Source: Dehalococcoidia bacterium (lineage in GTDB: Bacteria; Chloroflexota; Dehalococcoidia; UBA2979). Taken from it: a DNA stretch of 64,000 nucleotides. The notes beneath the pieces are model-generated. The model searched no databases. It was not told the DNA's origin and was given only the letters and a program-made list of their open reading frames with translations. The DNA lies in contig CAXXDN010000002.1 in assembly GCA_963667465.2 (NCBI GenBank), positions 1,408,001 to 1,472,000 of the forward strand, given 5' to 3'. Within the stretch, counting starts at the first letter, position 1. Each line of letters starts with the position of its first letter. Below are positions 12,150-26,765 of the stretch, one piece after another. Position numbers and translations under genes: made by a program.

Positions 12150-15100
12150 TTGCGGCGTTCCGCAACGCTCGCGCTGCTCGTCGGCGCGCTCGCACTCGCG
12201 GCCCTCAGCACCACCGGCAGCCACGCGCAGTCCCCGGCGGATCCGCAGAACCTCCTGCCCAACGGCGGCTTCGAGGACGGGCTGGACGGCTGGGTGCAGC
12301 CAGCCGGAGCAGTCCTCGAGGCTGTCGGCGAGCCCGTTCAGTCAGGCGCCGCCGCAGCGAAGGTCACTACGAGCGGGCCGGGCCGCGTGACGGTGATGAC
12401 CCAATACTGGGACGTGCGAGTCGCGCCGGGGGCCGCGCATACGCTCCGCGTGTGGCTTCGCAGCGACGCCCCCGCTGATCCCGCGGGCCCAAACGTCCTC
12501 CGGATGGAGGTGAGCCTCGAGTTCGTCGGCGCGGACGGAACCCGTGTCGGCGTTCCGACTACGCAGCGGATCGAGACTCCGACGGCGGGCTGGCAGCGCG
12601 TTGAGATCGCTCCAGTCGCGGCGCCGACCGACGCCACGTACGCTCGTCTGCGGGTGACCGCTGAGGTCTCCGCGAGCGGGGCCGTGTTCTACCTGGACTC
12701 GGCGGAACTCACGGCCGCCCCGCCGCCGCCCACGCCGACCCCGACCGAAACGCCGACGCCGACCGCTACTCCGACCCCGACCGAAACGCCGACCGTTACC
12801 CCGACCGCGACTACCGCAGCTGAGCCCACCTTCTTCGCCTCACTCACCAACGGCGACTTCGAACTGCCAGGCGCGACACCATACGGCTGGGGCGCGCACG
12901 CCGCCGAGGCCATCGTCACGCCCGCGGGCGGCTCGCGAACCGTCACGCTCACCTCGCGCGGGAGCGCGACGGCCTGGCTGCACCAGTCCTTCGCCGTCGA
13001 GGGCGGACACTGGTACGAGGCGTCCGGCCTGCTTCGGCCCGTGTCCAACGCCGCGCTCGCGCGCATCCGCATCGCCTGGTACGCCTCGGAAGACGCGAGC
13101 GGCGCGCAGCTCTCCACGGCCGACGCCGACGAGGTCCTCGGCGTCGGCGACTCCTCCACGACCGTCTCCACAGGCCCGATCCGTGCGCCCGACAACGCGC
13201 GGAGCGCGCAACTGCGAGTCATGCTCCGGCCCGCAAGCGTGGCGCCCGCCGTGCTGCGCGCGGACGACGTGCGCTTCGAACGCACCGCGCCGCCGCCGAG
13301 CACAACCGTCGTGAGGACTCCCGTGCCCGTGCCCACACCCGAGGCGATGCCAACATTCTTCGTCGCGCTGACGAACGGCGACTTCGAGCTGCCGGGCGAC
13401 ACGCCCTACGGCTGGCGCGCCCACGCGGGCTCGGCCCTCGTCGCCTCCAACGGGGGCTCACGCAGCGTCACGCTTACCTCGCGAGGGAGTTCCACAGCCT
13501 GGCTGCACCAGTCCTTCGCCATCGAGGGCGGACGCTGGTACGAGGTCAGTGGGCGGCTGCGCGCGGTCTCCAACGCCTCCCTCACCCGCATCCGCGTCGC
13601 CTGGTACGCCTCGGACGACGCGAGCGGCGCGCAGCTCTCCACGGACGACTCCGCCGAGCTCAGCGGCGTCGGCGACTCGTTCACGCCCGTCTCCACCGGC
13701 GCGATCCGCGCGCCCGACGAGGCTCGCAGCGCGGAGCTGCGGGTGATGGTCCGGCCGGCGAGCGCGGCTCCGGCCGTCCTGCGCGCCGACGACGTGTCCT
13801 TTGCCCGCACCGCTCCGCCGCCGCCGGACGTGACCTCCGAGGCTCCGCCCACGCAACGGTTGCGGCCGCCCGAGGCGGCGCCCTCGTTCTTCGTCGCCCT
13901 CACCAACGGCGACTTCGAGCTGCCGGGCGATACACCCTACGGCTGGCGCGCCCACGCCGGGAACGCCCTCGTCACTTCCGAGGGCGGCTCGCGCGCCGCC
14001 CTGCTCACGTCGGAGGGCGCGGCGATTGCCTGGCTGCACCAGTCGTGCGCCGTCGAGGGCGGGCGCTGGTACGAGGTAGCCGGGAGGCTCCAGCCCGGCG
14101 CGGGCGCGGACCTCGCCCGCATTCGCGTCGCCTGGTACGCCTCGGAAGACGCGAGCGGGCCGCAGCTCTCCATCGCGGACTCCGGGGAACTCGAGGGCGC
14201 GGGCGACTCCCTCGCCACCGTCACCACCGGCGCAATCCGCGCACCCGACGAGGCGCGCAGCGCACAACTCCGCATCATGCTGCGCCCCGCCGCTGAAGCC
14301 CCGGCAACCCTCGTCACCGATGACGTGTCCTTCACCCGCACCGCGCCTCCTGCACCCGCGACGCCCGACACGCCGCCGGAAGCCGCCTCCCTCGCTCCCG
14401 AGGAGGCGCCAGCGTTCTTCGCCTCCCTCACCAACGGCGACTTCGAGCTGCCCGGCGAGACGCCCTACGGCTGGCGCGCCCACGCCGGAGATGCCCTCGT
14501 GGTCTCCGAGGGCGCCTCGCGGGCTGCCGCGCTCACCGCACGCAGCGACACGACGGCCTGGCTGCACCAGCCCTTCGCCGTCGAGGGCGGCCGCTGGTAC
14601 GAGGCCACGGGTTCGCTGCGGCTCGGCGACAATGCCGCGCTCGCCCGCCTCCGCGTGGCCTGGTACGCCTCTGAAGACGCGAGCGGGCCACAGCTCTCCG
14701 TCGCCGACTCGGATGCCCTCGAGGGCGTTGGCGACTCCTTTGCCGCGGTCTCGACCGGCGCGATCCGCGCGCCCGACGAGGCTCGCAGTGCGCAACTGCG
14801 CGTCATGCTGCGTCCTGCGGGCGAGACTCCCGCCGTCCTGCACGCCGACGATGTCGCCTTTACGCCCGCCGCCCCGCCAGCGCCCGCCCCGACACCGCCT
14901 GCCCCCGCTGAGAGCCCCGCGTCGCCGTCGCCGGAAGCGGCGGCTCGGACGTCCCCTCCCCCCGCGGCGACCTCGGGCGAGGGCGCGCTGCCGGCGCTGG
15001 AGCCGTACCACCTGCGCAGCGCCTCGGCGGTGCTGCTGCGCATCACGGAACTGCTGCCCGATCCGGTCCAGAGCGGCCCCGATGCGGAGTACGAATGGAT

Positions 15101-15848
15101 CGAGGTCGCCAACGTGGGCGCGGCCGCCGTCCCGCTCGCGGGTCTGCTCCTCGCCGACAACCACGGCTGGATCGCCCTGCCCACGCTGACGCTGCCACCC
15201 GGCGGCGCGATCGTCGTCGCGGGGCCGCAGGCGGAGATCGGGGACGCCATCGCGCTGCGGCAGGGCAGCGGGCTGTTCAACGGCCTCGGCAACTCCGGTG
15301 ACCGCCTCGCACTCGCCACGACGGACGGCGCGATCATCGATGCGCTGTCCTACGGCAGCGACGGCAGCGTGGACGAGCCGCCGCTCAAGGCGCCGCCGGC
15401 CGGGCGCTCGCTGCAGCGCCGCTTCGACCCGGCCGGCCGGCTGATCGAGGCGGCCGTCGCCGAGCAGCCCTCCCCCGGACACCTCGAGGGGCCCGCCCCG
15501 CCGGATGGGATTGCAGCGCCGGAGGCGGGCGCGACATCGGCGGCACCGGCCGACGCTGCGGACGCCGGCGCCTACACGTCGCCCTCGAGTGTCGAGGCGC
15601 TGCGCAGGCAGCTCGACGCTGCTGCGAGCGCGGACCGGACGGCCTGGATCGTGCTCGCCTCAGTCGCCGCGGTCGCCCTCGTGGCCGCGGGCGCTCACCG
15701 CGCCCGCGAGCTGCTGCGCGCTGCCCCTCCCGCAGCAAGCGTCGCGCCCCCACGCCGTGGGCGGCGCTGGCGACGCTATGCGAGCGGAGAGCAGGTGCGA
15801 GGGCGCGCGCTCAGTCCTCGTCGTCGTCGTAGAACTCCTCCGGCATGA
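12150..15848 (+). CDS. Secreted/membrane-anchored protein with five CBM4/9-like domains, Pro/Thr linkers, a lamin-tail domain and a C-terminal TM helix
   Basis: Signal peptide (L)RRSATLALLVG...SHA; NLLPNGGFE plus four LTNGDFELPG repeats; LTD-like LRITELLPDP...EWIEVAN; AWIVLASVAAVALVAAG helix; TTG start after a GGGGAA RBS. Confidence 0.8.
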   Translation: MRRSATLALLVGALALAALSTTGSHAQSPADPQNLLPNGGFEDGLDGWVQPAGAVLEAVGEPVQSGAAAAKVTTSGPGRVTVMTQYWDVRVAPGAAHTLRVWLRSDAPADPAGPNVLRMEVSLEFVGADGTRVGVPTTQRIETPTAGWQRVEIAPVAAPTDATYARLRVTAEVSASGAVFYLDSAELTAAPPPPTPTPTETPTPTATPTPTETPTVTPTATTAAEPTFFASLTNGDFELPGATPYGWGAHAAEAIVTPAGGSRTVTLTSRGSATAWLHQSFAVEGGHWYEASGLLRPVSNAALARIRIAWYASEDASGAQLSTADADEVLGVGDSSTTVSTGPIRAPDNARSAQLRVMLRPASVAPAVLRADDVRFERTAPPPSTTVVRTPVPVPTPEAMPTFFVALTNGDFELPGDTPYGWRAHAGSALVASNGGSRSVTLTSRGSSTAWLHQSFAIEGGRWYEVSGRLRAVSNASLTRIRVAWYASDDASGAQLSTDDSAELSGVGDSFTPVSTGAIRAPDEARSAELRVMVRPASAAPAVLRADDVSFARTAPPPPDVTSEAPPTQRLRPPEAAPSFFVALTNGDFELPGDTPYGWRAHAGNALVTSEGGSRAALLTSEGAAIAWLHQSCAVEGGRWYEVAGRLQPGAGADLARIRVAWYASEDASGPQLSIADSGELEGAGDSLATVTTGAIRAPDEARSAQLRIMLRPAAEAPATLVTDDVSFTRTAPPAPATPDTPPEAASLAPEEAPAFFASLTNGDFELPGETPYGWRAHAGDALVVSEGASRAAALTARSDTTAWLHQPFAVEGGRWYEATGSLRLGDNAALARLRVAWYASEDASGPQLSVADSDALEGVGDSFAAVSTGAIRAPDEARSAQLRVMLRPAGETPAVLHADDVAFTPAAPPAPAPTPPAPAESPASPSPEAAARTSPPPAATSGEGALPALEPYHLRSASAVLLRITELLPDPVQSGPDAEYEWIEVANVGAAAVPLAGLLLADNHGWIALPTLTLPPGGAIVVAGPQAEIGDAIALRQGSGLFNGLGNSGDRLALATTDGAIIDALSYGSDGSVDEPPLKAPPAGRSLQRRFDPAGRLIEAAVAEQPSPGHLEGPAPPDGIAAPEAGATSAAPADAADAGAYTSPSSVEALRRQLDAAASADRTAWIVLASVAAVALVAAGAHRARELLRAAPPAASVAPPRRGRRWRRYASGEQVRGRALSPRRRRRTPPA

Positions 15849-17211
15849 GCACGAACTCGGGGTAGGCCTCGAGACCCAGCTCGCCCGCGTCCTGGCCGAG
15901 GCGCTCGACCTCGGGCGCTACGCGGACGCTCAGCGTCCTCGCCAGCACCTGCCAGAGCACCCAGGAGACCGTGAACACGAAGGCGCCTACCGAGAGCACG
16001 CCGACGATCTGCACGCCGAGGTCCGCCCCCGCCACGATCGAGGCGGCCAGCGTGCCCCAGATGCCGGCGAAGAGGTGGGCGGGCACCGCGCCCACCACGT
16101 CGTCGAGCTGGAGCTTCTCCATCAACCTCAACCCGGCGGTACAGATGATCCCGCCGATCGCGCCGATGATCACCGCCCAGTAGTGCTCGGTGATGTCCGG
16201 CCCGGCGGTGATCGAGACGAGCCCCGCAATCGCGCCGTTCAGGCCCGCGAAGAGGTCCATCCGCCCGAGAATGTAGCGAGAGAGACCGAGGGCGGCCATC
16301 ACGCCGGCCGCCGCCGCGAGGTTCGTGTTGACGAGCACGTGGCTCATCGCCACCGCGTCGGAGGCGCTGCCCAGCGCGAGCTGCGAGCCGCCGTTGAACC
16401 CGAACCAGCCGAACCAGAGGATGAAGACGCCCAGCGTCACCACCAGGATGTTCGAGGGCGGCGTCGACCGCGGCGTGCCGTCGCGACGGAACTTACCGAG
16501 CCTCGGACCGACCACGAGGATCCCGGCGAGGGCAGCCCAGCCGCCGACGCCGTGCACGATGGTGGAGCCGGCGAAGTCCTGGAACCCCAGCTCGGCCAGC
16601 CAGCCGCCGCCCCACGTCCACGCGCCGACGATCGGGTAGATCAGCGCCGTCAGCGCCAGCGTGAAGAGGAAGAACGTCCACATCTTGACGCGCTCGGCCA
16701 GCGCACCCGAGACAATCGAGGCCGCGGTCGCGACGAAGACCATCTGGAAGAACCAGTCGGACATCGTCGAGTAGCTGTTGTTCGCCACGATCGCGGCCGC
16801 GTCACCCTCCCCCGCCACGAGGGCGATCTCCTCGGAGGTCGGGCCGTAGAGCAGGTTGAAGGAGCCGATTACGCCGCCGACGATGTCGACGTACATCAGG
16901 TTGTAGCCGATGAAGAAGTAGGCCAGCCCCGCGATCGAGTAGAGGCCGATGTTCTTGAGGCAGATCATCGACGCGTTCTTGGTGCGCACCGAGCCCGACT
17001 CGAGCATCGTGAAGCCGGCGCACATCCACATCACGAGCGCGCCCCAGACGAGGAACGAGAAGGTGTTGAGGATGAACGCGGCCTCGGCCCCGATCTCGGC
17101 CTGCTGGGCCTGGGCCGTGCCGGAGAACAACAGGAAGAGCACGAGCGCGAGGACGCCCGAAGCCGCCAGGATGGCGGCGGGACGGCGCTTCGAGAGGATC
17201 GTGACGAGCAT
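15811..17211 (-). CDS. amtB: Ammonium transporter
   Basis: GFTMLESG, FFQMVF, DFAGSTIVH, LWFGWFGFNGGS, DDVVGAVPAH (both pore His present). Confidence 0.96.
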   Translation of the reverse strand: MLVTILSKRRPAAILAASGVLALVLFLLFSGTAQAQQAEIGAEAAFILNTFSFLVWGALVMWMCAGFTMLESGSVRTKNASMICLKNIGLYSIAGLAYFFIGYNLMYVDIVGGVIGSFNLLYGPTSEEIALVAGEGDAAAIVANNSYSTMSDWFFQMVFVATAASIVSGALAERVKMWTFFLFTLALTALIYPIVGAWTWGGGWLAELGFQDFAGSTIVHGVGGWAALAGILVVGPRLGKFRRDGTPRSTPPSNILVVTLGVFILWFGWFGFNGGSQLALGSASDAVAMSHVLVNTNLAAAAGVMAALGLSRYILGRMDLFAGLNGAIAGLVSITAGPDITEHYWAVIIGAIGGIICTAGLRLMEKLQLDDVVGAVPAHLFAGIWGTLAASIVAGADLGVQIVGVLSVGAFVFTVSWVLWQVLARTLSVRVAPEVERLGQDAGELGLEAYPEFVLMPEEFYDDDED

Positions 17212-17340
17212 GGCGGCCTCCTCAATTTGCTACGGCGCGCTGGGGAGGTGACAACGATCGGGGATCGGCTGCGGTCACGTCTCCGCGACGGCGGACATGA
17301 TAGCGGAATGGGATGAGGTACCAAGCGCCGCGCTGCGCCG

Positions 17341-18942
17341 CTACGCGGCGCCCGGCGTTCCCAGCCTCCGCAGCACCTCGTCGTGGAGCCGGCCGTTCGA
17401 GGCGATGCGCGGTCCCGCGCCCTCTGCTGCGGCGCCCGCGGCGTCCGTGATGCGGCCCCCGGCTTCCTCGACGATCGGGACCAGGGCGGCCACGTCCCAC
17501 GGGTGCAGATCGACGCCGTCCAGCATGACGTCGGCCGCGCCCTCGGCGACGAGGCAGAAGCCCCAGAAGTCGCCGAACCCGCGCACCCGCCAGGCCTCGC
17601 CGAGCAGCGCCCGCGCACCCGGCCAGCGCTCGAGGGTCGCGACCGTCTCGCCGTACACGACCTGCGCCGCTGACAGCGTCGCCGCGTCCGAGACGTGGAT
17701 GCGCTCGCCCGCGCCACGGGAGCCGGTCGCTCCCCGGTACGCCCCGAGGCCGTGGCCCGCCCACCAGCGCGTCCCGAGCGCCGGCGCGGAGACGACGCCG
17801 ACCTCGATGCTTCCGTCGCGCTCGCAGGCGATCAGCGTCCCCCACACGGGGATGCCGCGCATGTAGCTGTGAGTCCCGTCGATCGGGTCGAGGATCCAGC
17901 GCGCCTCGGCTTCCCCGGAGCCCTCGTCGTCGCCCTGCTCCTCGCCGAGGACGGCGTGCGCCGGGTAGCGCTCGGCGATGCGCTCGCGCAGCAACGCCTC
18001 GATCTCGCGGTCGGCAGGCGTCACGTACGTGCCGTCGGCCTTGCGCTCCACGGCGTGCTCGCCTCGATAGTCCCGCATCGCGATCGCGTCGGCGGCGTCC
18101 GCCAGCTCGAGGGCGAAGGCGAGGATGTCGGTGGTGGTGTCACTCGCCGCCTCGCGACCTGGCGCGGCCCGCCGAACGTCTTCCATCAATTCGAAGTGCG
18201 GAGTCTGGTAGCCCTGCTGCCGCTGTCCCCACGGGGAGTCGAGGAGAGTGCGCACCCGTGCAGCAAGCAGCTCGCCGTGGTCCTTCGACGGCAGGATCAC
18301 GAAGCACCGCGGGACTTTGCGACGCCAGCGCAGCACGATCGGATTGAGCGCTCGGCCGAAGCGGCCGCGGATGCCGTCGGTGAGCTCCGCGATCTGTTGA
18401 TCTATCGGCTGCCGCTTCGCGTGCTGGTAGATGACGATGCTCTGTCCTCGCTCCCAGCAGCGGGCGAGATCGTCGTGGTAGGCGTACTTCGGACCGTTTG
18501 ACGCTGTAGGGCTGGTACGGCGGGGTGCAAGACCATTGTCGGGATCGACGAAGACGACGTCCGCCTCTCGCACGGTGTCGAGCCCTCGCTGCAGCCAGCC
18601 GTCGCGCTTCAGCAAGCGATCGTTGGGCGACTCCCGGGCCTCAAAGCTCAGCGCTTCATCGAAGAATGCGGTCCCTTCCGGCAGGATTCGCCGTCTCTGC
18701 ACCGCGGCGACAGAGCGCTCGGCCGCGACAACATCTTGCAACTCGTCGAAGAGATCGGGGTCGCACCTGCGCAGGCCCGCTTCCGGCGAATCGAGGTAGT
18801 CCGTGATCCCACCGTCGCCGTCGCCCTCCTCGTCCGGCACGCGGTACCACAGCACGCCAAGGCGAAGATCGTCGCCGCAGAGGGCGCGCAGCAATCCGTA
18901 CTTGCCGAAGTCGCCGATGTCGCCCGCGTAGCGATCCTGCAT
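17341..18942 (-). CDS. hisN: Fusion: N-terminal uncharacterised Rossmann/RlmJ-like domain plus C-terminal inositol-monophosphatase-family histidinol-phosphatase
   Basis: C-terminal half: VTPADREIE, LGEE, WILDPIDGT, RGFGDFWG, HPWDVAA; N-terminal half: MQDRYAGDIGDFGKYGLLR...VFVDPDNG; single open frame. Confidence 0.8.
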   Translation of the reverse strand: MQDRYAGDIGDFGKYGLLRALCGDDLRLGVLWYRVPDEEGDGDGGITDYLDSPEAGLRRCDPDLFDELQDVVAAERSVAAVQRRRILPEGTAFFDEALSFEARESPNDRLLKRDGWLQRGLDTVREADVVFVDPDNGLAPRRTSPTASNGPKYAYHDDLARCWERGQSIVIYQHAKRQPIDQQIAELTDGIRGRFGRALNPIVLRWRRKVPRCFVILPSKDHGELLAARVRTLLDSPWGQRQQGYQTPHFELMEDVRRAAPGREAASDTTTDILAFALELADAADAIAMRDYRGEHAVERKADGTYVTPADREIEALLRERIAERYPAHAVLGEEQGDDEGSGEAEARWILDPIDGTHSYMRGIPVWGTLIACERDGSIEVGVVSAPALGTRWWAGHGLGAYRGATGSRGAGERIHVSDAATLSAAQVVYGETVATLERWPGARALLGEAWRVRGFGDFWGFCLVAEGAADVMLDGVDLHPWDVAALVPIVEEAGGRITDAAGAAAEGAGPRIASNGRLHDEVLRRLGTPGAA

Positions 18943-19874
18943 CAGGCCTCCCCCTTCGCCGGACCCTCACCCCCCGCCCTCTCCCGCAGGGGGAGAGGGG
19001 GCCGGATGTCCGCCTGCTCGCGAAACACGACGCCCTCGCACGACGCGAAGCGGCGGCGCATCACCGCGAACGCCTCCGGCGAGCTGTCGGCGAGGACGAA
19101 GCGGCGGCCGTGGCGCAGCGCCGCCTCGCCCGTCGTGCCGCTGCCCGCGACGAAGTCGCAGACCAGCCCGCCGGGCGGCGAGGAGGCGCGCACGATCCGC
19201 TCGAGGACACCGATCGGCTTCTGCGTCGGGTAGCCCAGCTTCTCCTTGCCCGTCGGGCTCACGATCGTGTGCCACCAGGTGTCCGTCGGCAGCTTGCCGC
19301 GCGCCGCCTTCTCGGGGCCCACGAGGCCGGGCGCCATGTAGGGGATGCGCTCGATGTCCTCGGCGTTGAAGCGGTTGCGCGCGGCGTCCTTCGCGTAGAA
19401 GAGGATGTTGTCGTGCTTCGCCGGCCAACGCCGCTTCGGCCGCGCGCCGTAGTCATAGGCCCAGATGATCTCGTTGACGAAGTTGACACGACCGAAGATC
19501 CCGTCCGCCAGCACCTTCGCGTAGTGCACCTCGCGGTAGTCGAGGTGCAGGTAGAGGCTGCCCGAGGGCGCGAGCACCCGCTGCGCCTCGACGAGGAACG
19601 GCTCGAGGAAGCCGAGGTAATCGTCGCGGTCGTCCTCGAAGGAGCGGCTGCCCAGCCGCTCGGTCTCGTAGCGACGCCCGCCGAAGCCGCTGCGGTCGCC
19701 CTCCCCGTCCGCGACCCGTCGCGTGCGCAGCTGCTCGCGCGTCTGCCGCCGGCCGGTGTTGAACGGCGGGTCGAGGTAGACGAGGTCGACGCTTTCGTCC
19801 TCGAGGGTGCGCGCGACCGCCACACCGTCAGCGCAGTGCACGACGCCGCGCGGCGCGGCAGTGCTGTCGCTCAC
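18942..19874 (-). CDS. Site-specific DNA methyltransferase (N6A/N4C, beta class), orphan
   Basis: Motif IV LVYLDPPF precedes YPTQKP and motif I DFVAGSGTT. Confidence 0.9.
   Translation of the reverse strand: MSDSTAAPRGVVHCADGVAVARTLEDESVDLVYLDPPFNTGRRQTREQLRTRRVADGEGDRSGFGGRRYETERLGSRSFEDDRDDYLGFLEPFLVEAQRVLAPSGSLYLHLDYREVHYAKVLADGIFGRVNFVNEIIWAYDYGARPKRRWPAKHDNILFYAKDAARNRFNAEDIERIPYMAPGLVGPEKAARGKLPTDTWWHTIVSPTGKEKLGYPTQKPIGVLERIVRASSPPGGLVCDFVAGSGTTGEAALRHGRRFVLADSSPEAFAVMRRRFASCEGVVFREQADIRPPLPLRERAGGEGPAKGEA
18964..19000. repeat. REP-like palindrome (CCCTCACCC..CCCTCTCCC..GGGAGAGGG family) inside the methyltransferase 3' end
   Basis: Similar to the intergenic copy at about 53454-53488; translated as PPLPLRERAGGEG. 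Confidence 0.7.
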
Positions 19875-19881
19875 GACGCCC

Positions 19882-20640
19882 TCACGCCGTCAGCGTGCCC
19901 TTGGTGCTCGGCACCTCGCCGGCGATGCGCGGATCGCGGCGAGTGGCGGCATCGAGGGCGCGCCCGAGCGCCTTGAAGGCGGCCTCGGCGATGTGGTGGT
20001 CGTTCGCGCCGGCGAGCTGGCGGACGTGCAGCGCGCAGCGCGCGCCCTGCGAGAACGATTGCAGGGCGTGGCCGATCATCTCCGTCGGCGCCTGGCCGAT
20101 TCGCTCGCTGCCCCAGTCGAAAGCGATCGCGGCGTAGGGACGGCCCGAACAGTCGACCACCGCCTGCACCAGCGCCTCGTCGAGCGGCACGGTCGCGTCG
20201 CCCATGCGCACGAGGCCGGAGCGGTCGCCCAGCGCCTCGTCGACGGCCGTGCCGAGCGCCAGCGCGCAGTCCTCCATCGTGTGGTGCTCGTCGACGTGCA
20301 GGTCGCCCTCGCAGCGCAGTTCGAGGTCGAAGCGGCCGTGCTTGGCGAACGCCTCGAGGACGTGGTCATAGAAGCCGACGCCGGTCGCGATCTCGGCGCG
20401 GCCGGTGCCGTCGATGTCGATCTCGACGTGGATGCGGGTCTCGGCGGTGCTGCGGTCGAGGGTGGCGCGGCGGGCGCCGCCATCGAGGTCGCGCTTGACG
20501 CGCTTGAGGTTGGTGTTGATCGCCTGGCGGGTCACGCCAAGCTCCTCGGCGAGCCGCGTCTGGCCGCCGAGCACGTCAAGCTCGCCCGCCTCGTAGGCCT
20601 CGCGGACGCGCAAATAGGTCTCGCTCTTGATCTCGACCAT
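19882..20640 (-). CDS. hisB: Imidazoleglycerol-phosphate dehydratase with an N-terminal helix-turn-helix extension
   Basis: IATGVGFYDHVL, GDLHVDEHHTMED, GANDHHIAEAAFKA, VPSTKGTL; extra about 55 aa containing QTRLAEELGVTRQAINTNLKR. Confidence 0.93.
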   Translation of the reverse strand: MVEIKSETYLRVREAYEAGELDVLGGQTRLAEELGVTRQAINTNLKRVKRDLDGGARRATLDRSTAETRIHVEIDIDGTGRAEIATGVGFYDHVLEAFAKHGRFDLELRCEGDLHVDEHHTMEDCALALGTAVDEALGDRSGLVRMGDATVPLDEALVQAVVDCSGRPYAAIAFDWGSERIGQAPTEMIGHALQSFSQGARCALHVRQLAGANDHHIAEAAFKALGRALDAATRRDPRIAGEVPSTKGTLTA

Positions 20641-20668
20641 GGGGCCGACCTTTCCGGTGCGCCCATCG

Positions 20669-20697
20669 AGCGTACGGCTTAAGTTAAGCTCTGTCTA
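20669..20697 (-). promoter_or_regulatory. Internal sigma70-type promoter TAGACA-N17-TACGCT with palindrome GCTTAA-C-TTAAGC in the spacer
   Basis: Exact 17-bp spacing in an AT-rich hisC-hisB intergenic patch; palindrome at 20677-20689. Confidence 0.7.
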
Positions 20698-20734
20698 CCA
20701 CAAACAAGGATCATGTGGTTGACGCTTGTTGACT

Positions 20735-21904
20735 TCAGCCACTTTTGCTACCTGGCTGCCCCTCAATGTCTTGACGCGCCTCGGACAGTGCCGCGAGCAG
20801 ACGCGCGCTGTCAGCGGGAGTGCCGACCGAGATGCGGACGTGGTCGCGCAGGCGCTCGTGGCCGAAGAAGCGCACGAAGACGCCGCGCCGCGCCAGCGCC
20901 TCGCGCAGCGCCGCCCCGCTGCCGGCGGTGAGGCGGCAGAGCAGGAAGTTGGCCTGCGAGGGCACGGGCTCCAGCCAGCCGCCCGCGCGCAGCTGCACCG
21001 CCAGGCGGTCACGCTCCCCGGCGATCTCGCAGGCGCGCTCGTCGAGCAGCGCCGCGTCCTCCAGCGAGGCGAGCGCGGCCGCCTCGGCGGCGGTGCTCAC
21101 GCCGTAGGGCTGCTTGCACTGCATCAGCAGCGCGGCGACCGAGGCCGGCATCACGCCGTAGCCGACACGCAGCCCGGCCAGACCGGCCCACTTGCTGAAC
21201 GTGCGCAGCACGATCAGCGGCGCGCCTCCCTCGCTCGTTGCGTCGGCCACGAGGCTCGGCGATCCGCTGTGCACTCCCCCGTAGCCGCTTGCGAACTCCA
21301 CGTAGGCCTCGTCGATGACAACGATCGCGCCGCTCGCGCGCAGGCGCTCGGCTGCGCCCTGCGGCAGCAGCCCGCCCGTCGGGTTGTTGGGCGAGGGCAG
21401 GAAGACGGCCTTCGCGCCCTCGCAGGCCGCGAGGAGCGCGTCGAGGTCCACCGACCAGTCGCCGCGCCTCGGCACGTCGACCAGCTCGGCACCCGCGATC
21501 TCCGCGCCGAAGGGATACATCCCGAACGTCGGCGAGGCGATCACGACACGGTCGCCCGCATCGACGAAGATGCGGAAGACGAGGTCGATGATCTCGTCGG
21601 CGCCCGCACCGGCGACGATGCACTCCGGCGGCACTTCATGGCGCGCGCCGAGGGCGTCACGCAGCCTTCGCTGCTCCGGGTCCGGGTAGCGGTGCGCGGC
21701 GTAGCCGCCCGCGAGCGCCGCCAGGGCTCGCGGGGAAGCGCCGTAGGGGTTCTCGTTGCCGTCGAGCTTGACGATCGCCTCCGGCGCGACGCCGTAGCGG
21801 GCGGCGAGCTGCGCGGGCGGGTCGATCGGCTCGTAGCCGCGCAGCGAGCGCAGCGGCGGGCGCAGCGCGCCCTCGAGGTCGAAGCTCGCGGAGTCCGTCA
21901 TCAC
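20735..21904 (-). CDS. hisC: Histidinol-phosphate aminotransferase
   Basis: KLDGNENP, YPDP, SPNNPTG, DEAYVEF, RTFSKWAGLAGLRVGY. Confidence 0.95.
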   Translation of the reverse strand: MMTDSASFDLEGALRPPLRSLRGYEPIDPPAQLAARYGVAPEAIVKLDGNENPYGASPRALAALAGGYAAHRYPDPEQRRLRDALGARHEVPPECIVAGAGADEIIDLVFRIFVDAGDRVVIASPTFGMYPFGAEIAGAELVDVPRRGDWSVDLDALLAACEGAKAVFLPSPNNPTGGLLPQGAAERLRASGAIVVIDEAYVEFASGYGGVHSGSPSLVADATSEGGAPLIVLRTFSKWAGLAGLRVGYGVMPASVAALLMQCKQPYGVSTAAEAAALASLEDAALLDERACEIAGERDRLAVQLRAGGWLEPVPSQANFLLCRLTAGSGAALREALARRGVFVRFFGHERLRDHVRISVGTPADSARLLAALSEARQDIEGQPGSKSG

Positions 21905-23244
21905 AGTCCCTCCAGCCTGCGCTCGATCGAGCGGGCGTGGCCGGTCAGTCCCTCGGCGCGGGCCAGCCGCGCGGCGTGCGGCCCGAGCTCGGCGAGTGCG
22001 CCTTCCGGCAGCGCGATCACGGAGCTGACCTTCAGGAAGTCGAGCACCGAGAGTGGCGAGGCGTAACGCGCCGAGCCGCCGGTGGGCATGACGTGGCTCG
22101 GCCCCGCGACGTAGTCGCCGAGCACCTCGGGCGAGTGGTCGCCGACGAAGACGCCGCCCGCCTGCGTGATCTGCGGCGCGATCGCCTCCGGCTCGCGCGT
22201 CAGCAGGCAGAGGTGCTCCGGCGCGAACTCGTTGGCGAGCGCCACCGCCTCGTCGAGGCTGCCCGCGACGACCGCCCCACCGCCCTCGACCGCCGCGCGC
22301 GCGATCGCGCCTCGCTCGAGATCTGCGAGCTGGCGCTCGACCTCGGCCTGCACCGCCTCGGCGTGCGCGCGCGTGGTCGTGATCAGCACCGGCCTCGCGA
22401 GGGCGTCGTGCTCCGCCTGCGCCAGCAGGTCTGCGGCGCAGAGGTCGGGCGCGGCCTCGTCGTCGGCGAGCACGAGCGTCTCGGTCGGGCCATAGATCGC
22501 GTCGATGCCGACCTCGCCGAAGAGCTGCTGCTTGGCGAGCGTCACGAAGACGTTGCCCGGCCCGAAGATCTTGTCGGCGCGCGGGATCGTCTCCGTGCCC
22601 AGCGCCAGCGCCGCGATCGCCTGCGCGCCCGAGGCGCGGAAGATGCGCTGCACCCCGGCGAGCTCGGCCGCCACCAGCTTCAGCGGGTGCACGCTGCCGT
22701 CCTCGCGCGCGGCCGTGACGCCGATGCGATCCGGCACGCCCGCGACGAGTCCGGGCAGCGCCGTGTGCAGCACCGAGGAGGGCAGCACCGCCACGCTGCC
22801 GGTCATATAGACGCCCGCCCTCACGATCGGCTGTACCGTCATGCCGACGCCGTCCTCGAGGAAGGAGCGCGGGCCGTGCGCCAACTGGCGCTCGTGGTAG
22901 TGGCGCACGCGGTCGGCGGCGAAGCGCAGCGAGTCGAGCAGCTCGTCGGGCGTCTCCGCGAACGCCGCCTCGATCTCCTCGCGGCCCACCTCGAGTGGCG
23001 CGTCCGCGGAGCCGTCGAAGCGCTGCGAGAAGGCGCGTACCGCTGCGTCGCCCTCCTCGCGCACTCGCGCGACGATCCGCGCGACCACCTCGGAGGCGCT
23101 CAGGTCCGCGCCGAACGTCTCGCGGATCGAGGCGCGCACGGGCGGCGGCAGCGCGGGGTCGCCAAGCGGGTCGCGCCGCAGCACGCCGGCGCGAGCGGCC
23201 GTGGCGCCCTCGACGATGCGCAGCGCGGGCGTGGTGGCAGCCAT
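21901..23244 (-). CDS. hisD: Histidinol dehydrogenase
   Basis: GAQAIAALALGTETIP, GPGNVFV, DLLAQAEHD, APEHL, GDYVAGPSHVMPTGG. Confidence 0.95.
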   Translation of the reverse strand: MAATTPALRIVEGATAARAGVLRRDPLGDPALPPPVRASIRETFGADLSASEVVARIVARVREEGDAAVRAFSQRFDGSADAPLEVGREEIEAAFAETPDELLDSLRFAADRVRHYHERQLAHGPRSFLEDGVGMTVQPIVRAGVYMTGSVAVLPSSVLHTALPGLVAGVPDRIGVTAAREDGSVHPLKLVAAELAGVQRIFRASGAQAIAALALGTETIPRADKIFGPGNVFVTLAKQQLFGEVGIDAIYGPTETLVLADDEAAPDLCAADLLAQAEHDALARPVLITTTRAHAEAVQAEVERQLADLERGAIARAAVEGGGAVVAGSLDEAVALANEFAPEHLCLLTREPEAIAPQITQAGGVFVGDHSPEVLGDYVAGPSHVMPTGGSARYASPLSVLDFLKVSSVIALPEGALAELGPHAARLARAEGLTGHARSIERRLEGL

Positions 23245-23999
23245 CAGCGCCGCGGCAGGTATTCGCGGAGGCGCTCGGCGGCCAGCTCGGTCGCCTCCTC
23301 GAGGTAGCGCGTGACCTCCTGCTCGGTGACGTGCGAGAGCGACTCCTGGATCAGCCCGCCCGGGTTCTGCGCGACCTCCTCGACCTCCTCCTCGCTGAAA
23401 CCGCCGCGCCGCAAGTGGATCTGCATCACGCGCGGGAAGCGCTCCCAGTCCGGGCGCTGGTAGGTGATGCCGCGTGTGAAGTCGCGCCACTCCGGCCACA
23501 GCCGTTCCTCGATGAAGCCGACGGCGATCGCCGCCTCGGTCGTGTCGATGGCGGTGCGAATCTCCGCGAGGGCGGCGTCGTTCTCCAGCTCGCGACGGTT
23601 CATCTCGTACTGCAGGGCGCGGTCGAGGATGTTGGCGCGCAGATCGCCGCCGAGCGACGAGCGCTCACCGAAGAAGCGGCGGTAGACGCTCTGGATGTAG
23701 TGCTCGTCCATCAGCAGGTGCGTGACGTAGCCCGCCACGAACGCCCTCGTGCTCTCGTTGAGGCCGGCGACGTTCCGGAGGTCCGGGTGCTCCTCGAACA
23801 TGCGCGCCACCGAGTCCTGCTGCTCGAAGTCGTCGAGCTCGAAGAAGTGCGTCAGACGGCGATCCACGCGCAGCAGCACGCGGATGTCCGGCGCCGTGGA
23901 GCCCAGGTAGTAGGACCCGCGATCGGCGTCGATGCACGGGTGGCCGAGACGGTCGGCCAGCCCGTAGGCACTGGCGAGGTGCGATCCCAGTGAGGGCAC
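23244..23999 (-). CDS. Zinc-dependent phospholipase C-like metal-dependent hydrolase
   Basis: N-terminal xPxxxSH, YYLGSTAPD, THF, GYVTHLLMD; its stop overlaps the hisD start. Confidence 0.7.
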   Translation of the reverse strand: MPSLGSHLASAYGLADRLGHPCIDADRGSYYLGSTAPDIRVLLRVDRRLTHFFELDDFEQQDSVARMFEEHPDLRNVAGLNESTRAFVAGYVTHLLMDEHYIQSVYRRFFGERSSLGGDLRANILDRALQYEMNRRELENDAALAEIRTAIDTTEAAIAVGFIEERLWPEWRDFTRGITYQRPDWERFPRVMQIHLRRGGFSEEEVEEVAQNPGGLIQESLSHVTEQEVTRYLEEATELAAERLREYLPRR

Positions 24000-24000
24000 G

Positions 24001-25440
24001 TCAGACCTCCGCGGCTCCCGCCCGCAGCCGCTCGACCAGATCGTCGCGCAGCTCGCCGCGCGCACCCGGCGGACGCTCCGTCGATCCGATCGCGCAGTTC
24101 GTCGACTCCATGATGACGTCGATCATACGGAGCCGGTTGGCGCGCAGGGTGGAGCCCGTCTCCGTGCCCTCGATCAGGATCTCGGCGTCGTCCGGCACGA
24201 AGCCCTCGGATGCCCCGGAGATCGGCAGCACCTGGTAGCGCCCGAGGTGCCGCTCGCGCGCGTAGTGGTCGGCCAGCGCAACGTACTCCGAGGCGACGCG
24301 GATCGGCCGCTTTGGGTCGTCGCGCCGCCACCACGCAATCGCCTCGGCGATCGTCTCGGCGGGCACGGCCTCGGGCACGACGGCTCCGAGGCGATAGCGG
24401 CTGCGGCGCAGGTCGCACAGCTCGGCGACCGGCGAGAGCGGGAACGCCGCGCGGTGCGCAGCCAGCCAGTCGCGCCCCGTCAGCGCGAGGTCGAAGCAGC
24501 CGAGCGCGACGGCCTGCGGCATGTCCTGCGGGCGGATCACCTTTACCTCGAAGCCCTCGATACCGGAGCGCGGGTGGCGGTCGGTGGCGCCGTCGCCGTA
24601 GCCCTCGAAGCGAAGTCCGGCGGAGGCAAGCGCCTCGACGGTGTGCCGCTGCGCGTGCCCGTCCGGCAGCGCAAGCCGGAAGACGCCACGATCGTTATCC
24701 GAGGTCCGCGAGGCGATGCCCTCAAGGCCGCCGGTGCGGCCGTTGCCGCGCGGCAGCGGGCGCGCCTCGGAGGCGTCCCGGTCGCCCGCCGGCAGCGCGA
24801 GCAGCGGCCCGAGCGCCTCCGCGAGATCGCGACTCGCGAGCGCGTCGCGGTTTGCGACGAGCGTGGCCGAGCCGCGCTGCACCTCGGCGACGACGGCCAG
24901 CCCCTCGCGGGCGAGGACGGCGCCGGCCGCCGCCGCGTCGAGCGGCACGCTGAGGATCGCGGCGTCGGCGTCCTCGGGTGGCCACGCCTCGGGCTGGCCC
25001 CAGACCTCGATCACGCGGTAGTCCGGCACGCGCAGGTAGTTGAGCGCACGCGCCGCCAGGTTCGGGTGCGTCGTCGTCACCCGCACGCCCGGCGTCGCCG
25101 CGAGGCGGTCGAGCGTGACGCCCTCGGGCGCCGCGAGCACGAGCCGCCGGCCTCCGAGGTCGAGCGGACGCAGCGGCGTCAGCGAGTCGAGCGGGTAGCG
25201 CGCGAGCAGTTCATCGATCCAGGCGCGGCTGGTGATGCCGAGATCGTACTGGCCGAGCGCGACCTGGATTGGAATGTCCTCCTCGGCGAAGACGCGCACG
25301 ACCACGCCCGGCCGGCCTTCGACAGGGAAGCGGTAGGCGCGCGATCCGCCCTCGTAGCCCTCGACGGCGAAGCCGGCCGCTCGCAGGCGCTCGGCGAGCG
25401 GCGCGCGCAGGTCGCCGCGCGGCAGCGCGACGCGGATCAC
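24001..25440 (-). CDS. hisG: ATP phosphoribosyltransferase with two tandem short-form HisG domains
   Basis: IRVALPRG...DIPIQVALGQYDLGIT and RLALPDG...IRPQDMPQAVALGCFDLALTG...ETGSTLRANRL. Confidence 0.88.
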   Translation of the reverse strand: MIRVALPRGDLRAPLAERLRAAGFAVEGYEGGSRAYRFPVEGRPGVVVRVFAEEDIPIQVALGQYDLGITSRAWIDELLARYPLDSLTPLRPLDLGGRRLVLAAPEGVTLDRLAATPGVRVTTTHPNLAARALNYLRVPDYRVIEVWGQPEAWPPEDADAAILSVPLDAAAAGAVLAREGLAVVAEVQRGSATLVANRDALASRDLAEALGPLLALPAGDRDASEARPLPRGNGRTGGLEGIASRTSDNDRGVFRLALPDGHAQRHTVEALASAGLRFEGYGDGATDRHPRSGIEGFEVKVIRPQDMPQAVALGCFDLALTGRDWLAAHRAAFPLSPVAELCDLRRSRYRLGAVVPEAVPAETIAEAIAWWRRDDPKRPIRVASEYVALADHYARERHLGRYQVLPISGASEGFVPDDAEILIEGTETGSTLRANRLRMIDVIMESTNCAIGSTERPPGARGELRDDLVERLRAGAAEV

Positions 25441-26468: not shown

Positions 26469-26542
26469 GCTCGTCTCACTCTCACGGTTCGTGCTGGTGG
26501 TCCGGTTTCGTGGGGAGCCGGGACGGCGACGCCTGTCTGCTC

Positions 26543-26578
26543 ACACAGAAACGCCGCGACGGGGTTCCGCCGCGGCGT
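26543..26578 (-). terminator. Attenuator terminator hairpin upstream of hisZ
   Basis: ACGCCGCGGCGG-AACC-CCGTCGCGGCGT 12-bp stem (one G-U) followed by TTCTGTGT. Confidence 0.75.
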
Positions 26579-26600
26579 GTCACTGGCATCAGCGTTCCGG

Positions 26601-26693: not shown

Positions 26694-26697
26694 GCTG

Positions 26698-26726: not shown

Positions 26727-26765
26727 GCGCGGCGCGTTCATGCCCTGGCGGAAACGCCGCCTGGG

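What the first reader, a model, noticed from the sequence alone, without database searches (positions are those of the whole stretch)
17341..20735. Candidate new system: HTH, DNA methyltransferase and RlmJ-like module interleaved with his genes
Seen: an internal promoter with a palindromic spacer, then HTH::HisB, an orphan beta-class DNA MTase, and (TGATG-coupled) an unknown domain fused in frame to HisN. Known: controller-HTH plus palindromic operator plus MTase is the layout of C-protein-regulated restriction-modification operons. Inference: an autoregulated modification or defence-like module has been tied to two histidine enzymes, which would hinder its loss or link histidine status to DNA methylation. 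The parts could also be independent insertions.
Basis: partly seen in the sequence, partly recalled or inferred. Interest (0 to 1): 0.8.

Follow-up and report, generated by a model that had tools for sequence, protein, structure and literature searches.

The report
Histidine operon carrying inserted accessory genes
A histidine-biosynthesis operon in an uncultured Dehalococcoidia genus has picked up, at different times, a DNA adenine methyltransferase, a swappable gene of unknown function and a small DNA-binding domain, two of which are fused to histidine enzymes, and the parts do not behave as one defence system.

Summary
On the minus strand the order is hisC, a 94-nt regulatory gap, HTH::hisB, a beta-class N6-adenine DNA methyltransferase (MTase), then X::hisN, with a TGATG stop/start overlap between MTase and X. 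Independent contigs from 4 runs in 3 studies reproduce both fusion junctions with no differences.

The parts have different histories:
- **MTase.** It sits in the his operon in 16 of 18 genus relatives. Between the two subclades it is better conserved (87-92% aa) than HisD, HisC, HisB or HisN (73-82%). No restriction enzyme lies beside it.
- **HTH.** It occurs in one subclade only (10 genomes). It comes with a conserved promoter-like element and four GTCAAC-type hexamers.
- **X.** It belongs to a large uncharacterised family with an RlmJ-like fold but without RlmJ's motifs. Its alleles are old and have been exchanged between lineages. It is broken in one relative, replaced in another, and kept without the MTase in a third. 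Outside this genus it never sits next to a DNA MTase.
- **X::HisN fusion.** It recurs in at least six lineages.

Verdict: this is a mosaic operon built from independent insertions, not a C-protein-type restriction-modification or defence module. The HTH::IGPD fusion, the strongly constrained MTase and the X family are each moderately interesting.

The parts
20735..21904 (-). hisC (histidinol-phosphate aminotransferase), the last gene before the internal regulatory gap
   Evidence: PF00155, E 2.8e-53. The order hisD-hisC-hisB is conserved across the genus.
20641..20734 (-). Regulatory gap. Contains two direct GTCAAC boxes (20718-20733, 10-bp spacing), a -35-like TAGACA (20692-20697), a 17-nt spacer holding the window-specific palindrome GCTTAACTTAAGC (20677-20689), a -10-like TACGCT (20669-20674) and a Shine-Dalgarno-like GGAAAGG (20649-20655).
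   Evidence: Alignment A4 of 10 genomes shows these boxes invariant or nearly invariant while the sequence between them varies. Direct repeat D1 and a 27-nt, 70%-complementary inverted repeat I1 were found. GTCAAY-N4-7-GTCAAY occurs once in the window against 0.04 expected. The composite motif is unique in the genome. The strict sigma-70 scan did not call it.
20476..20640 (-). HTH domain (aa 1-55) fused to HisB. It is a tri-helical DNA-binding-type domain.
   Evidence: Sub-threshold YdaS/Cro/KorA/HTH_11 hits. The AF2 model has pLDDT 89.6 and three helices. The Foldseek top hits are all DNA-binding HTH domains, led by KorA at TM 0.60 and E 0.36, which is not significant. It is 89-98% identical to the window, and in frame with HisB, in all 9 relatives that have it.
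19882..20475 (-). IGPD (HisB) catalytic part, the only IGPD in the genome
   Evidence: PF00475 and NF002116 are above cut-off. A search of the whole genome gives a single PF00475 match. There is no in-frame ATG, GTG or TTG between codon 37 and the IGPD core (read), so it can only be made as the fusion.
18942..19874 (-). Solitary beta-class N6-adenine DNA methyltransferase, M.RsrI-like
   Evidence: PF01555 scores 144 bits. PADLOC MTase_II scores 425.6 bits. The nearest solved structure is M.RsrI 1eg2, E 1.2e-30. An orthologue of at least 85% identity sits in the his operon in 16 of 18 genus relatives.
18138..19023 (-). Variable cassette: the last ~26 codons of the MTase, all of X, and the X-HisN junction
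   Evidence: blastn against the closest relative G001 loses homology exactly over 18138-19023, with 92-94% identity on both sides. GC here is 0.68 against 0.70-0.75 in the adjoining 500-nt bins. Contig depth is flat over X but raised over the MTase.
18193..18942 (-). X domain (aa 1-250): RlmJ-like fold, function unknown
   Evidence: 1527 homologues at E <= 0.001. 455 loci in species-representative genomes. AF2 plus Foldseek results. No Pfam, NCBIfam or PADLOC family.
18139..18192 (-). Linker created where the X stop codon normally overlaps the hisN start
   Evidence: In relatives X ends ~5-9 residues after the conserved HF motif, and 9-10 of 14 have a GTGA/ATGA overlap with hisN. The window has no stop there. 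An 86%-identical full-length fusion, P0130, aligns with no gaps.
17341..18138 (-). HisN-type (IMPase-family) histidinol-phosphate phosphatase domain
   Evidence: PF00459, E 3e-45. TIGR02067 scores 243-246 bits, under the 275 cut-off. No PHP-type or HAD-type phosphatase scores above cut-off in the genome.

Best explanation
This is a mosaic histidine operon in an uncultured Dehalococcoidia genus. At least three unrelated pieces were inserted at different times and then welded into the operon.

(1) MTase. A solitary M.RsrI-like beta-class N6-adenine DNA methyltransferase entered between hisB and hisN in the genus ancestor. It has been inherited vertically since, under strong purifying selection. 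It most likely acts as an orphan 'housekeeping' or epigenetic methylase, not as half of a restriction system (inferred).

(2) X. The slot just downstream carries X, a ~250-aa protein with an RlmJ-like fold. X lacks RlmJ's glycine-rich SAM loop and DPPY motif, so its chemistry is unknown. My best guess is a nucleic-acid- or nucleotide-binding enzyme. X is dispensable. Its alleles are older than the flanks and are exchanged by recombination between the conserved MTase and hisN sequences. X is translationally coupled on both sides, by TGATG upstream and GTGA/ATGA downstream. Loss of its stop codon therefore readily gives X::HisN, as in this window and at least five other lineages.

(3) HTH. Later, in one subclade, a small KorA/Cro-like HTH gene arrived with its own promoter. 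The promoter is TAGACA-17/18-TAnnnT, with four GTCAAC-type hexamers in two inverted pairs. The gene landed between hisC and hisB and fused in frame to hisB, replacing hisB's own start. HTH::HisB is the only IGPD in the genome, so the fusion protein must be made. It probably binds the hexamers, two of which overlap the -35 box and the spacer, and so autoregulates hisB-MTase-X-hisN (inferred, not shown).
For: Different phyletic patterns:
- The MTase orthologue (85-96% identity) is in the his operon in 16 of 18 genus relatives.
- The HTH is in 9 of those, plus the window.
- X is intact in 14, broken in G017, replaced by a 121-aa ORF in G001, and relocated as X::HisN in G006. G006 keeps only a 28-aa MTase remnant after hisB.

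MTase constraint. In three pairs spanning the two subclades, the MTase is 87-92% identical. HisD is 77-79%, HisC 73-74%, HisB 79-82% and HisN 76-78%. MTase dN/dS is 0.14-0.21.

Orphan status:
- The MTase neighbours are hisB and X.
- PADLOC hits the MTase only.
- The 54-65% homologues found in 5 of the 22 relatives outside the genus lie among housekeeping genes in the three loci whose neighbours were scanned. In G022 the gene sits between argG and argH. In G029 it sits between a polyprenyl synthetase and a tetrapyrrole-type methylase.

X allele exchange:
- X dS is 0.65-1.35 where the flanks have 0.13-0.72 in the same genome pairs.
- X-tree clades with SH-aLRT 97-98 mix the two subclades.
- The homology break is sharp, at 18138-19023.

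X is not an MTase partner in general:
- 0 of 67 non-genus loci have this MTase nearby.
- No DNA-MTase family is among the 25 commonest Pfam families of 130 upstream or 125 downstream neighbour ORFs.
- PADLOC families hit at most 2 ORFs each.

Fusions are real:
- Contigs from 4 runs in 3 studies reproduce them.
- P0130 keeps the same fusion at 86% identity with no gap.
- P0131, P0132, P0134 and G006 carry X::HisN with different linkers.

HTH regulatory region:
- It is a conserved footprint in 10 of 10 genomes.
- The composite motif is unique in the genome.
- HTH dN/dS is 0.06-0.39.
Against: - No methylome, transcript or binding data exist, so the MTase role, promoter activity and HTH binding are all inferred.
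- The strict promoter scan did not call the site, because the -10 box matches only 3 of 6 positions.
- The HTH assignment rests on sub-threshold HMM hits and a non-significant Foldseek E-value.
- MTase-X coupling (TGATG) is invariant in 16 of 16 genomes despite 41-93% X divergence. The one replacement cargo, in G001, looks like a small PD-(D/E)XK nuclease, though this is only an Atlas lead scoring 0.94 with no alignment. Both facts are also what a functional MTase-partner pair would show.
- Recurrent X::HisN fusions, and X lying beside his genes in three more distant Chloroflexota (L055, L060, L090), could mean that X is functionally tied to histidine metabolism rather than being a passenger.
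- The X tree is a quick search, not the finished careful one. One origin of the genus alleles is not excluded.
Confidence: 0.6

Rival explanations
1. Under it, HTH, operator, MTase and X form one autoregulated restriction-modification-like or defence module. The HTH would act as a C-protein-type controller and X as the effector. The module would be anchored to essential his genes so that it cannot be lost.
For: - The gene order is HTH, then MTase, then an unknown gene, with tight coupling.
- Operator-like repeats are conserved.
- X alleles are diverse and exchanged, as in conflict genes.
- In G001 the slot holds a possible small nuclease, which is a lead only.
Against: - The HTH arrived after MTase and X: it is absent from 7 relatives and from G006.
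- X survives without the MTase in G006.
- The MTase survives without X in G001 and G017.
- X has a methyltransferase-like fold, not a nuclease fold.
- X has no PADLOC hit.
- X homologues are not in defence islands and not next to MTases.
- The palindrome is not conserved.
- The HTH is not an Xre-family member by HMM.
Confidence: 0.08
2. X is functionally linked to HisN or to histidine metabolism. It would be, for example, a regulatory or substrate-handling domain of the phosphatase. On this reading the repeated X::HisN fusions are Rosetta-stone evidence of a shared function.
For: - X::HisN fusions occur in the window, P0130, P0131, P0132, P0134 and G006, with different linkers.
- 9-10 of 14 separate X/hisN pairs have a 4-nt start/stop overlap.
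- X stays with HisN after the G006 rearrangement.
- X lies beside hisB, hisC or hisD in three more distant Chloroflexota.
Against: - X is lost in G001 and broken in G017 while HisN is intact.
- 63 of 67 non-genus X loci have no his gene within 5 kb by the tblastn. The exceptions are L055, L060, L090 and the G006 locus L031.
- The commonest neighbours elsewhere are dCTP-deaminase-like, PurA-like, tpiA and miaA genes.
- Adjacent, translationally coupled genes fuse easily without any shared function.
Confidence: 0.15
3. The conserved MTase and whatever sits in the downstream slot (X alleles or the G001 121-aa protein) form a modular pair. The MTase would supply DNA recognition or marking, and the swappable partner would supply a variable activity.
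For: - The TGATG coupling is invariant in 16 of 16 genomes.
- The cassette boundary lies inside the MTase C-terminal tail, so each cassette brings its own MTase tail.
- X alleles are old and exchanged.
- The Atlas lead points to a 'restriction endonuclease family' cluster for the G001 ORF.
Against: - G006 keeps X without the MTase.
- X homologues elsewhere stand alone.
- The G001 ORF has no Pfam, PADLOC or PDB match.
- The G001 ORF occurs in 1 of 41 genomes searched.
Confidence: 0.1
4. The fusions are sequencing or assembly artefacts, and the genes are really separate.
For: - In most relatives X and hisN are separate genes in different frames.
- One database 'MTase::X' protein, P0133, is clearly a frameshifted MTase read into X.
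Against: - Contigs from 4 runs in 3 studies match the window with 0 differences across both junctions.
- P0130 keeps the same open fusion at 86% identity without gaps.
- The HTH is in frame with HisB in all 9 relatives that have it.
- hisB has no start codon of its own.
Confidence: 0.02

Closest known systems
C-protein-controlled Type II restriction-modification operons (PvuII, AhdI and Esp1396I types; recalled, not from a call)
   Same: A small HTH lies upstream of a Type II-family MTase. Repeated operator-like boxes overlap a promoter. The genes are tightly coupled.
   Different: - There is no restriction gene.
- The HTH is fused to an essential enzyme, is KorA/Cro-like rather than Xre-type, and was acquired after the MTase.
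- The palindrome is not conserved.
- The MTase is inherited vertically and is more conserved than the housekeeping genes around it.
Solitary adenine methyltransferases such as CcrM and Dam; nearest solved relative M.RsrI (1eg2)
   Same: - It is a beta-class N6_N4 MTase with DPPF.
- It has no cognate nuclease nearby.
- It is fixed in a lineage and under strong purifying selection.
   Different: - It scores only 65.6 bits on the CcrM model (cut-off 830) and 93.4 bits on the YhdJ-type model (cut-off 292).
- Its target sequence is unknown.
- It is embedded in an amino-acid biosynthesis operon. A homologue in another genus sits between argG and argH.
E. coli RlmJ, 23S rRNA m6A2030 methyltransferase (PF04378)
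   Same: - It is the best structural match to X.
- The N-terminal motif AG(D/N)xxDxxK(Y/H) is shared (read).
- The motif IV position aligns DPDN with DPPY (not significant).
   Different: - There is no HMM or profile match.
- X has no DTHAGAG-type glycine loop and no aromatic residue in motif IV.
- X is patchily distributed, with signs of horizontal transfer.
Corynebacterium glutamicum hisDCB-cg2302-cg2301 operon (PMC3896937; passages read via 'find')
   Same: - Genes unrelated to histidine are interleaved in a hisD-hisC-hisB operon.
- An internal promoter sits in front of hisB.
- An IMPase-type HisN is used.
   Different: - The interleaved genes there are a permease and an unknown protein, not a DNA MTase or an RlmJ-fold protein.
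- No HTH fusion is present.
- hisN lies elsewhere in that genome.
Enzyme-repressor fusions ('trigger enzymes' such as BirA, PutA and NadR; recalled, not from a call)
   Same: A metabolic enzyme carries an N-terminal HTH and sits behind a promoter with repeated binding-site-like boxes.
   Different: - DNA binding by HTH::HisB is untested.
- The architecture is rare: one cluster among 1.84 billion representatives.
- IGPD has not been reported as such a fusion in the papers searched (5 papers hold the terms, only PMC3896937 was read, and only as passages).

Membership tests
C-protein-regulated Type II R-M system | A cognate restriction endonuclease gene next to the MTase | tested here: not met
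   The neighbours are hisB and X. X has an MTase-like fold. No nuclease family was found in Pfam or PADLOC for any of the three ORFs.
C-protein-regulated Type II R-M system | A small stand-alone Xre/HTH_3-type controller protein | tested here: not met
   The HTH is fused to IGPD. HTH_3 scores E 0.12. The best hits are YdaS (28.3 bits, cut-off 30) and KorA/Cro-like families.
C-protein-regulated Type II R-M system | A conserved palindromic C-box operator at the promoter | tested here: inconclusive
   The palindrome at 20677-20689 is found only in the window. However, four GTCAAC-type hexamers in two inverted pairs are conserved in 10 of 10 genomes.
Beta-class N6-adenine DNA MTase (PF01555) | Pfam model above its gathering score | tested here: met
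   144.2 bits against 26.7. M.RsrI matches at E 1.2e-30.
Beta-class N6-adenine DNA MTase (PF01555) | Motif IV (DPPY/F) lies N-terminal to motif I (FxGxG) | tested here: met
   DPPF is at aa 35-38 and FVAGSGTTG at about aa 241-249 (read). Reading 'D rather than S means N6-adenine' is recalled knowledge.
Beta-class N6-adenine DNA MTase (PF01555) | Methyl transfer to a defined DNA sequence | not testable with these tools
   This needs a methylome or an enzyme assay.
RlmJ family (PF04378) | Match to the family HMM | tested here: not met
   X matches no Pfam family even at E <= 10. hhalign against E. coli RlmJ gives E 0.28.
RlmJ family (PF04378) | RlmJ-type fold with a helical insertion after strand 1 | tested here: met
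   Ranks 1-10 of the Foldseek list are RlmJ entries (E 7.7e-5 to 2.7e-4, TM 0.44-0.51). They are followed by the DUF519 protein 2oo3.
RlmJ family (PF04378) | DPPY catalytic motif and glycine-rich SAM loop | tested here: not met
   X has an invariant DPD followed by N/T at motif IV. It has LWY where RlmJ has DTHAGAG.
HisN histidinol-phosphate phosphatase (TIGR02067) | Equivalog model above its cut-off | tested here: inconclusive
   243-246 bits against 275. It is the best of 3 IMPase-type matches in the genome. No PHP-type or HAD-type alternative scores above cut-off. It sits at the end of the his operon.
IGPD HisB | Equivalog and Pfam models above cut-off | tested here: met
   NF002116 scores 270.9 against 269. 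PF00475 scores 199 bits. It is the only copy in the genome.
Known anti-phage defence systems (PADLOC) | Model hits beyond a lone MTase | tested here: not met
   Only MTase models hit. X, the HTH, HisB and HisN have none.

The most novel reading that the evidence does not exclude
HTH::IGPD is a trigger enzyme. Under this reading, the sole imidazoleglycerol-phosphate dehydratase of these bacteria also binds the four GTCAAC-type hexamers at its own promoter. Expression of the distal half of the operon would then follow the state of the histidine pathway. That half includes a genus-fixed orphan adenine methyltransferase and the recombining RlmJ-fold gene X. The result would be a direct metabolic control of DNA methylation, with the accessory genes locked to two essential enzymes.
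Probability: 0.15. Interest if true: 0.7.

Novelty: new variant of a known kind. Interest (0 to 1): 0.45.

Why it matters
The finding shows how a core biosynthetic operon can act as a landing pad. Accessory genes inserted there become hard to lose, through translational coupling and in-frame fusion to essential enzymes.

Three pieces deserve bench work:
- **The methyltransferase.** It is more conserved than the his enzymes around it. It is a candidate lineage-wide epigenetic regulator in an uncultured group seen in runs labelled sponge metagenome.
- **The HTH::IGPD architecture.** It was seen in only one protein cluster among 1.84 billion representatives. It could be a new way of regulating histidine genes in a phylum where no known RNA leader was found here.
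- **The X family.** It is a large protein family without a name. It has 1527 or more homologues, in both bacteria and archaea, and an RlmJ-derived fold with a different active site.

Tried and rejected
- **Complex prediction** on the HisN domain plus the X domain (collected): no verdict (score 0.00). It is not used as evidence either way.
- **The look-up of sequencing runs**: no RNA holder listed, so expression could not be examined.
- **Literature.** 'RlmJ-like' gave 0 papers. 'histidine operon' + 'DNA methyltransferase' + 'Chloroflexi' gave 0. The adenylosuccinate synthetase / dCTP deaminase / RlmJ search gave 3 irrelevant papers, judged from the listing only. 'orphan methyltransferase' + 'Dehalococcoidia' gave 1 paper, seen in the listing only and not read. 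Supplements were not available.
- **Sequence-level links of X to solved structures.** There were none; the only hits were chance-level (E 0.22-1). hhalign against E. coli RlmJ was not significant. The viral structure library gave 0 hits at E <= 0.001.
- **Rfam** over 15000-28000 at E <= 0.1: nothing.
- **Sigma-70 scan.** It called no site in the hisC-hisB gap, only one before amtB.
- **Canonical RlmJ in the genome.** None scored above cut-off.
- **X as the cognate restriction enzyme: rejected.** The reasons are its fold, its survival without the MTase in G006, and its solitary homologues.
- **The database 'MTase::X' protein P0133: rejected** as a real fusion, because the C-terminal half of its MTase part is read out of frame.
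- **The G001 121-aa ORF.** It has no Pfam or PADLOC hit and no PDB sequence hit. The nuclease reading is an Atlas lead plus a motif seen by eye.
- **The X tree** is the quick IQ-TREE search. The careful search did not finish in the time allowed. L055, L087 and L090 were dropped from it because a motif anchor used for trimming failed on them.

Full report
**Anatomy.** The window has about 72% G+C. On the minus strand it carries a his cluster: hisZ-like (25437-26468), a long hisG ORF, a weak Zn-phospholipase-C-like gene (23244-24065), hisD, hisC (20735-21904), a 94-nt gap, a 252-aa HisB with a 55-aa N-terminal extension (19882-20640), a 310-aa DNA methyltransferase (18942-19874), a 533-aa ORF (17341-18942), and then amtB.
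- The HisB core is an IGPD above cut-off (PF00475; NF002116 270.9 against 269). The extension gives only sub-threshold HTH hits.
- The MTase matches PF01555 (144 bits) and a PADLOC Type II MTase model (425.6 bits). DPPF precedes FVAGSGTTG, which is the beta-class order. Its nearest solved relative is M.RsrI (E 1.2e-30).
- In the 533-aa ORF, residues 1-250 ('X') have no Pfam, NCBIfam or PADLOC family. The C-terminal half is an IMPase-type HisN (PF00459; TIGR02067 243 bits, under the 275 cut-off).
- MTase stop and X start overlap as TGATG.

**Are the fusions real?** Contigs assembled independently from four runs in three studies lie on 17200-20800 with no differing letters and no gaps. In three runs a single contig covers 17200-18925, which spans the X-HisN junction. 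Contigs covering 20284-20800 span the HTH-HisB junction.
- A database protein, P0130, has the same X::HisN architecture at 86% identity with no gap over 530 residues.
- The HTH is in frame with HisB in all 9 relatives that have it.
- There is no in-frame start codon between codon 37 and the IGPD core.
- This is the only IGPD in the genome.

The fusion protein must therefore be made.

**Comparative picture in the genus.** Eighteen genomes of the same genus were searched, and the loci were cut out.
- The order hisD-hisC-hisB-MTase-slot-hisN-amtB is found in 16 of them. The other two are G002, a fragmented genome with no hisB match, and G006.
- Flank identities split the genus into two subclades: about 93-96% HisD identity within a subclade and 77-80% between them.
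- The HTH occurs only in subclade A (the window plus 9 relatives). In the other 7, hisB follows hisC within about 15-50 nt.
- More distant Chloroflexota HisB genes also lack the HTH. The HTH is therefore a later gain than the MTase.
- X is intact at the slot in 14 relatives and broken into two frames in G017.
- In G001, the closest relative, X is replaced by about 840 nt holding a 121-aa ORF.
- In G006, hisB is followed by only a 28-aa MTase remnant. A 582-aa X::HisN lies about 300 kb away, and the best MTase homologue in that genome is 39% identical.

So each of the three 'parts' occurs without the others.

**The methyltransferase.** Across three pairs that span the subclades, it is the best-conserved gene of the locus. 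The MTase is 87-92% identical, against HisD 77-79%, HisC 73-74%, HisB 79-82%, HisN 76-78% and AmtB 87-88%. Its dN/dS is 0.14-0.21.
- No nuclease-like neighbour exists.
- Homologues of 54-65% identity occur in five of the 22 relatives outside the genus, and none is beside his genes. In the three loci whose neighbours were scanned they sit among housekeeping genes. One lies between argG and argH, and one between a polyprenyl synthetase and a tetrapyrrole-type methylase.

I read this as a solitary methylase that is inherited vertically and functionally important. Its target and role were not tested.

**X.** X belongs to a large unnamed family. There are 1527 proteins at E <= 0.001, nearly all about 250 aa and stand-alone. 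There are 455 loci in species-representative genomes, spanning many bacterial phyla and archaea.
- A confident model (pLDDT 90.9) matches E. coli RlmJ best (E 7.7e-5, TM 0.49), followed by a DUF519 protein.
- The N-terminal AGDxGDFGKY resembles RlmJ's AGNHADVLKH. The invariant DPD(N) aligns with RlmJ's DPPY.
- No HMM or profile match exists. The glycine-rich SAM loop is missing, and motif IV has no aromatic residue. X is therefore RlmJ-like in fold but not a member of that family, and SAM-dependent methylation is not assured.
- In 67 loci outside the genus, no copy of this MTase is nearby. No DNA-MTase family appears among the 25 commonest Pfam families of the neighbours. PADLOC families hit at most 2 neighbour ORFs each.
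- The commonest recurrent neighbours are a PurA-like gene (10 loci) and a dCTP-deaminase-like gene (9 loci), immediately upstream.

**X as a swappable cassette.**
- In the same genome pairs, X shows dS of 0.65-1.35 where the flanks show 0.13-0.72. Its dN/dS of 0.14-0.45 indicates a working gene.
- X-tree clades with 97-98 SH-aLRT support join members of both subclades. For example, G018 and G015 group with G012, G004 and G014 (quick search; three rows dropped).
- Against G001, DNA homology stops at 18138 and resumes at 19023. The cassette thus includes the MTase's last ~26 codons, X, and the junction with hisN.
- G+C dips to 0.68 there.
- Contig depth is raised over the MTase but flat over X. 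This fits co-occurring strains that share the MTase but not the X allele.

**Coupling and fusion.** The TGATG overlap of MTase and X is present in 16 of 16 genomes that carry X at this locus. In 9-10 of 14 relatives with separate X and hisN, the hisN start overlaps the X stop (GTGA, ATGA or TTGA). One has an 11-nt spacer, and three are unresolved.
- In the window the stop is gone, and an 18-residue linker joins X to HisN.
- A search for longer relatives found 14 proteins. Five are X::HisN, with different linkers. One 'MTase::X' is a frameshift artefact.
- Together with G006, this makes at least six fused lineages.
- No PHP-type or HAD-type histidinol-phosphate phosphatase scores above cut-off in the genome. 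The HisN half is therefore probably needed.

**The HTH and its promoter.** The 62-residue N-terminus has only 6 hits at E <= 0.001 among 1.84 billion cluster representatives. One is the orthologous HTH::HisB cluster. Four are small or repeated HTH proteins of 63-160 aa, and one is a repeat protein that looks unrelated.
- It folds as three helices (pLDDT 89.6).
- Its best structural neighbours are DNA-binding domains (KorA, DtxR, homeodomains), with non-significant E-values.
- Upstream, an alignment of the 10 HTH-bearing genomes shows a footprint-like pattern. It reads: GTCAAY-N4-GTCAAY, then about 20 variable bases, then GTAGACA, then N3 TTGAC, then TAnnnT, a Shine-Dalgarno-like GGAAGGG, and the start codon.
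- TAGACA and TAnnnT are 17-18 nt apart.
- The boxes form two pairs of direct hexamers with 10-bp spacing, arranged as a 27-nt imperfect inverted repeat.
- The palindrome GCTTAACTTAAGC arises because the window has TTAAC where 8 of the 9 relatives have TTGAC and one has TTTAC. It is not a conserved operator.
- The composite motif occurs once in the genome.
- In several relatives, a DUF4258/DUF2283 toxin-antitoxin-type pair or other small genes sit between hisC and this region. This marks the site as an insertion hot spot.
- No Rfam element was found.

Autoregulation by HTH::HisB is a reasonable inference, but it is untested.

**Verdict.** The locus is a mosaic operon assembled by separate insertions and consolidated by coupling and fusion. 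It is not a C-protein-type R-M operon or a recognisable defence system. Three readings cannot be excluded:
- a functional MTase-partner pair;
- a real X-HisN functional link;
- a trigger-enzyme role for HTH::IGPD.

Noticed in passing
L043, L048, L062, L068, L080 (X at ~5001-5760; upstream genes e.g. L043:2809-3951 and L043:3976-5001): In about 9-10 of 67 non-genus loci, X is the last gene of a three-gene string. The order is an adenylosuccinate-synthetase-like gene, a dCTP-deaminase-like gene, then X, with a stop/start overlap before X. The first two genes have no PADLOC hit. This may be an undescribed nucleotide-centred system.
   Followed up: partly
L117:5643-6008 (-), genome G001: In the closest relative, the slot between the MTase and hisN holds a 121-aa ORF instead of X. 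It has five 69-93% identical metagenomic homologues. It has a PD...E-x-E...K-like motif (by eye) and an Atlas lead to a 'restriction endonuclease family' cluster (score 0.94). It has no Pfam, PADLOC or PDB match. It occurs in 1 of 41 genomes searched.
   Followed up: partly
L121:5742-6728 (+), genome G022: A 56-65% identical homologue of the MTase lies between argininosuccinate synthase and argininosuccinate lyase in another genus of the same family. This is a second case of this methylase inside an amino-acid biosynthesis operon.
   Followed up: partly
L015:3713-4161, and likewise L016, L026 and L029 (between hisC and HTH::hisB in relatives): A DUF4258 (E 1e-10) plus DUF2283 (E 5e-17) toxin-antitoxin-type pair is inserted between hisC and the HTH promoter region in G005. 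Near-identical DNA is present in G010 and G012, and only the DUF2283 part in G017. G009 carries a different pair of small genes there.
   Followed up: partly
window 24001-26049 (-): The hisG ORF contains two HisG-like stretches in tandem (Pfam reports 2 stretches). It also has a long Arg-rich N-terminal extension that overlaps the hisZ-like ORF. The annotated start is probably too far upstream, and the gene may be a duplicated short-form HisG.
   Followed up: no
window 23244-24065 (-): A 273-aa gene with a weak Zn-dependent phospholipase C hit (23.6 bits, under the cut-off) sits between hisG and hisD. It is conserved at that position across the genus, and at 39% identity in L060.
   Followed up: no
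L077 (Bacteroidales MAG) and L083 (Methanosarcinales MAG), X at 5001-5760: The X proteins of a bacterial and an archaeal MAG are nearest neighbours, with branch lengths of about 0.09-0.10. This indicates either recent inter-domain transfer or a binning error.
   Followed up: no
window 17297-17324 (-): The only site passing the strict sigma-70 scan in 17200-21000 is TTGGTA-16-TATCAT, in the hisN-amtB gap. This suggests that amtB has its own promoter.
   Followed up: no
window 18942-19023 (-): The window and G005 have a 310-aa MTase with a Pro/Gly-rich tail of about 24 residues. Most relatives stop near residue 286-289. Alternative sequences at this spot also appear in the laid contigs.
   Followed up: no
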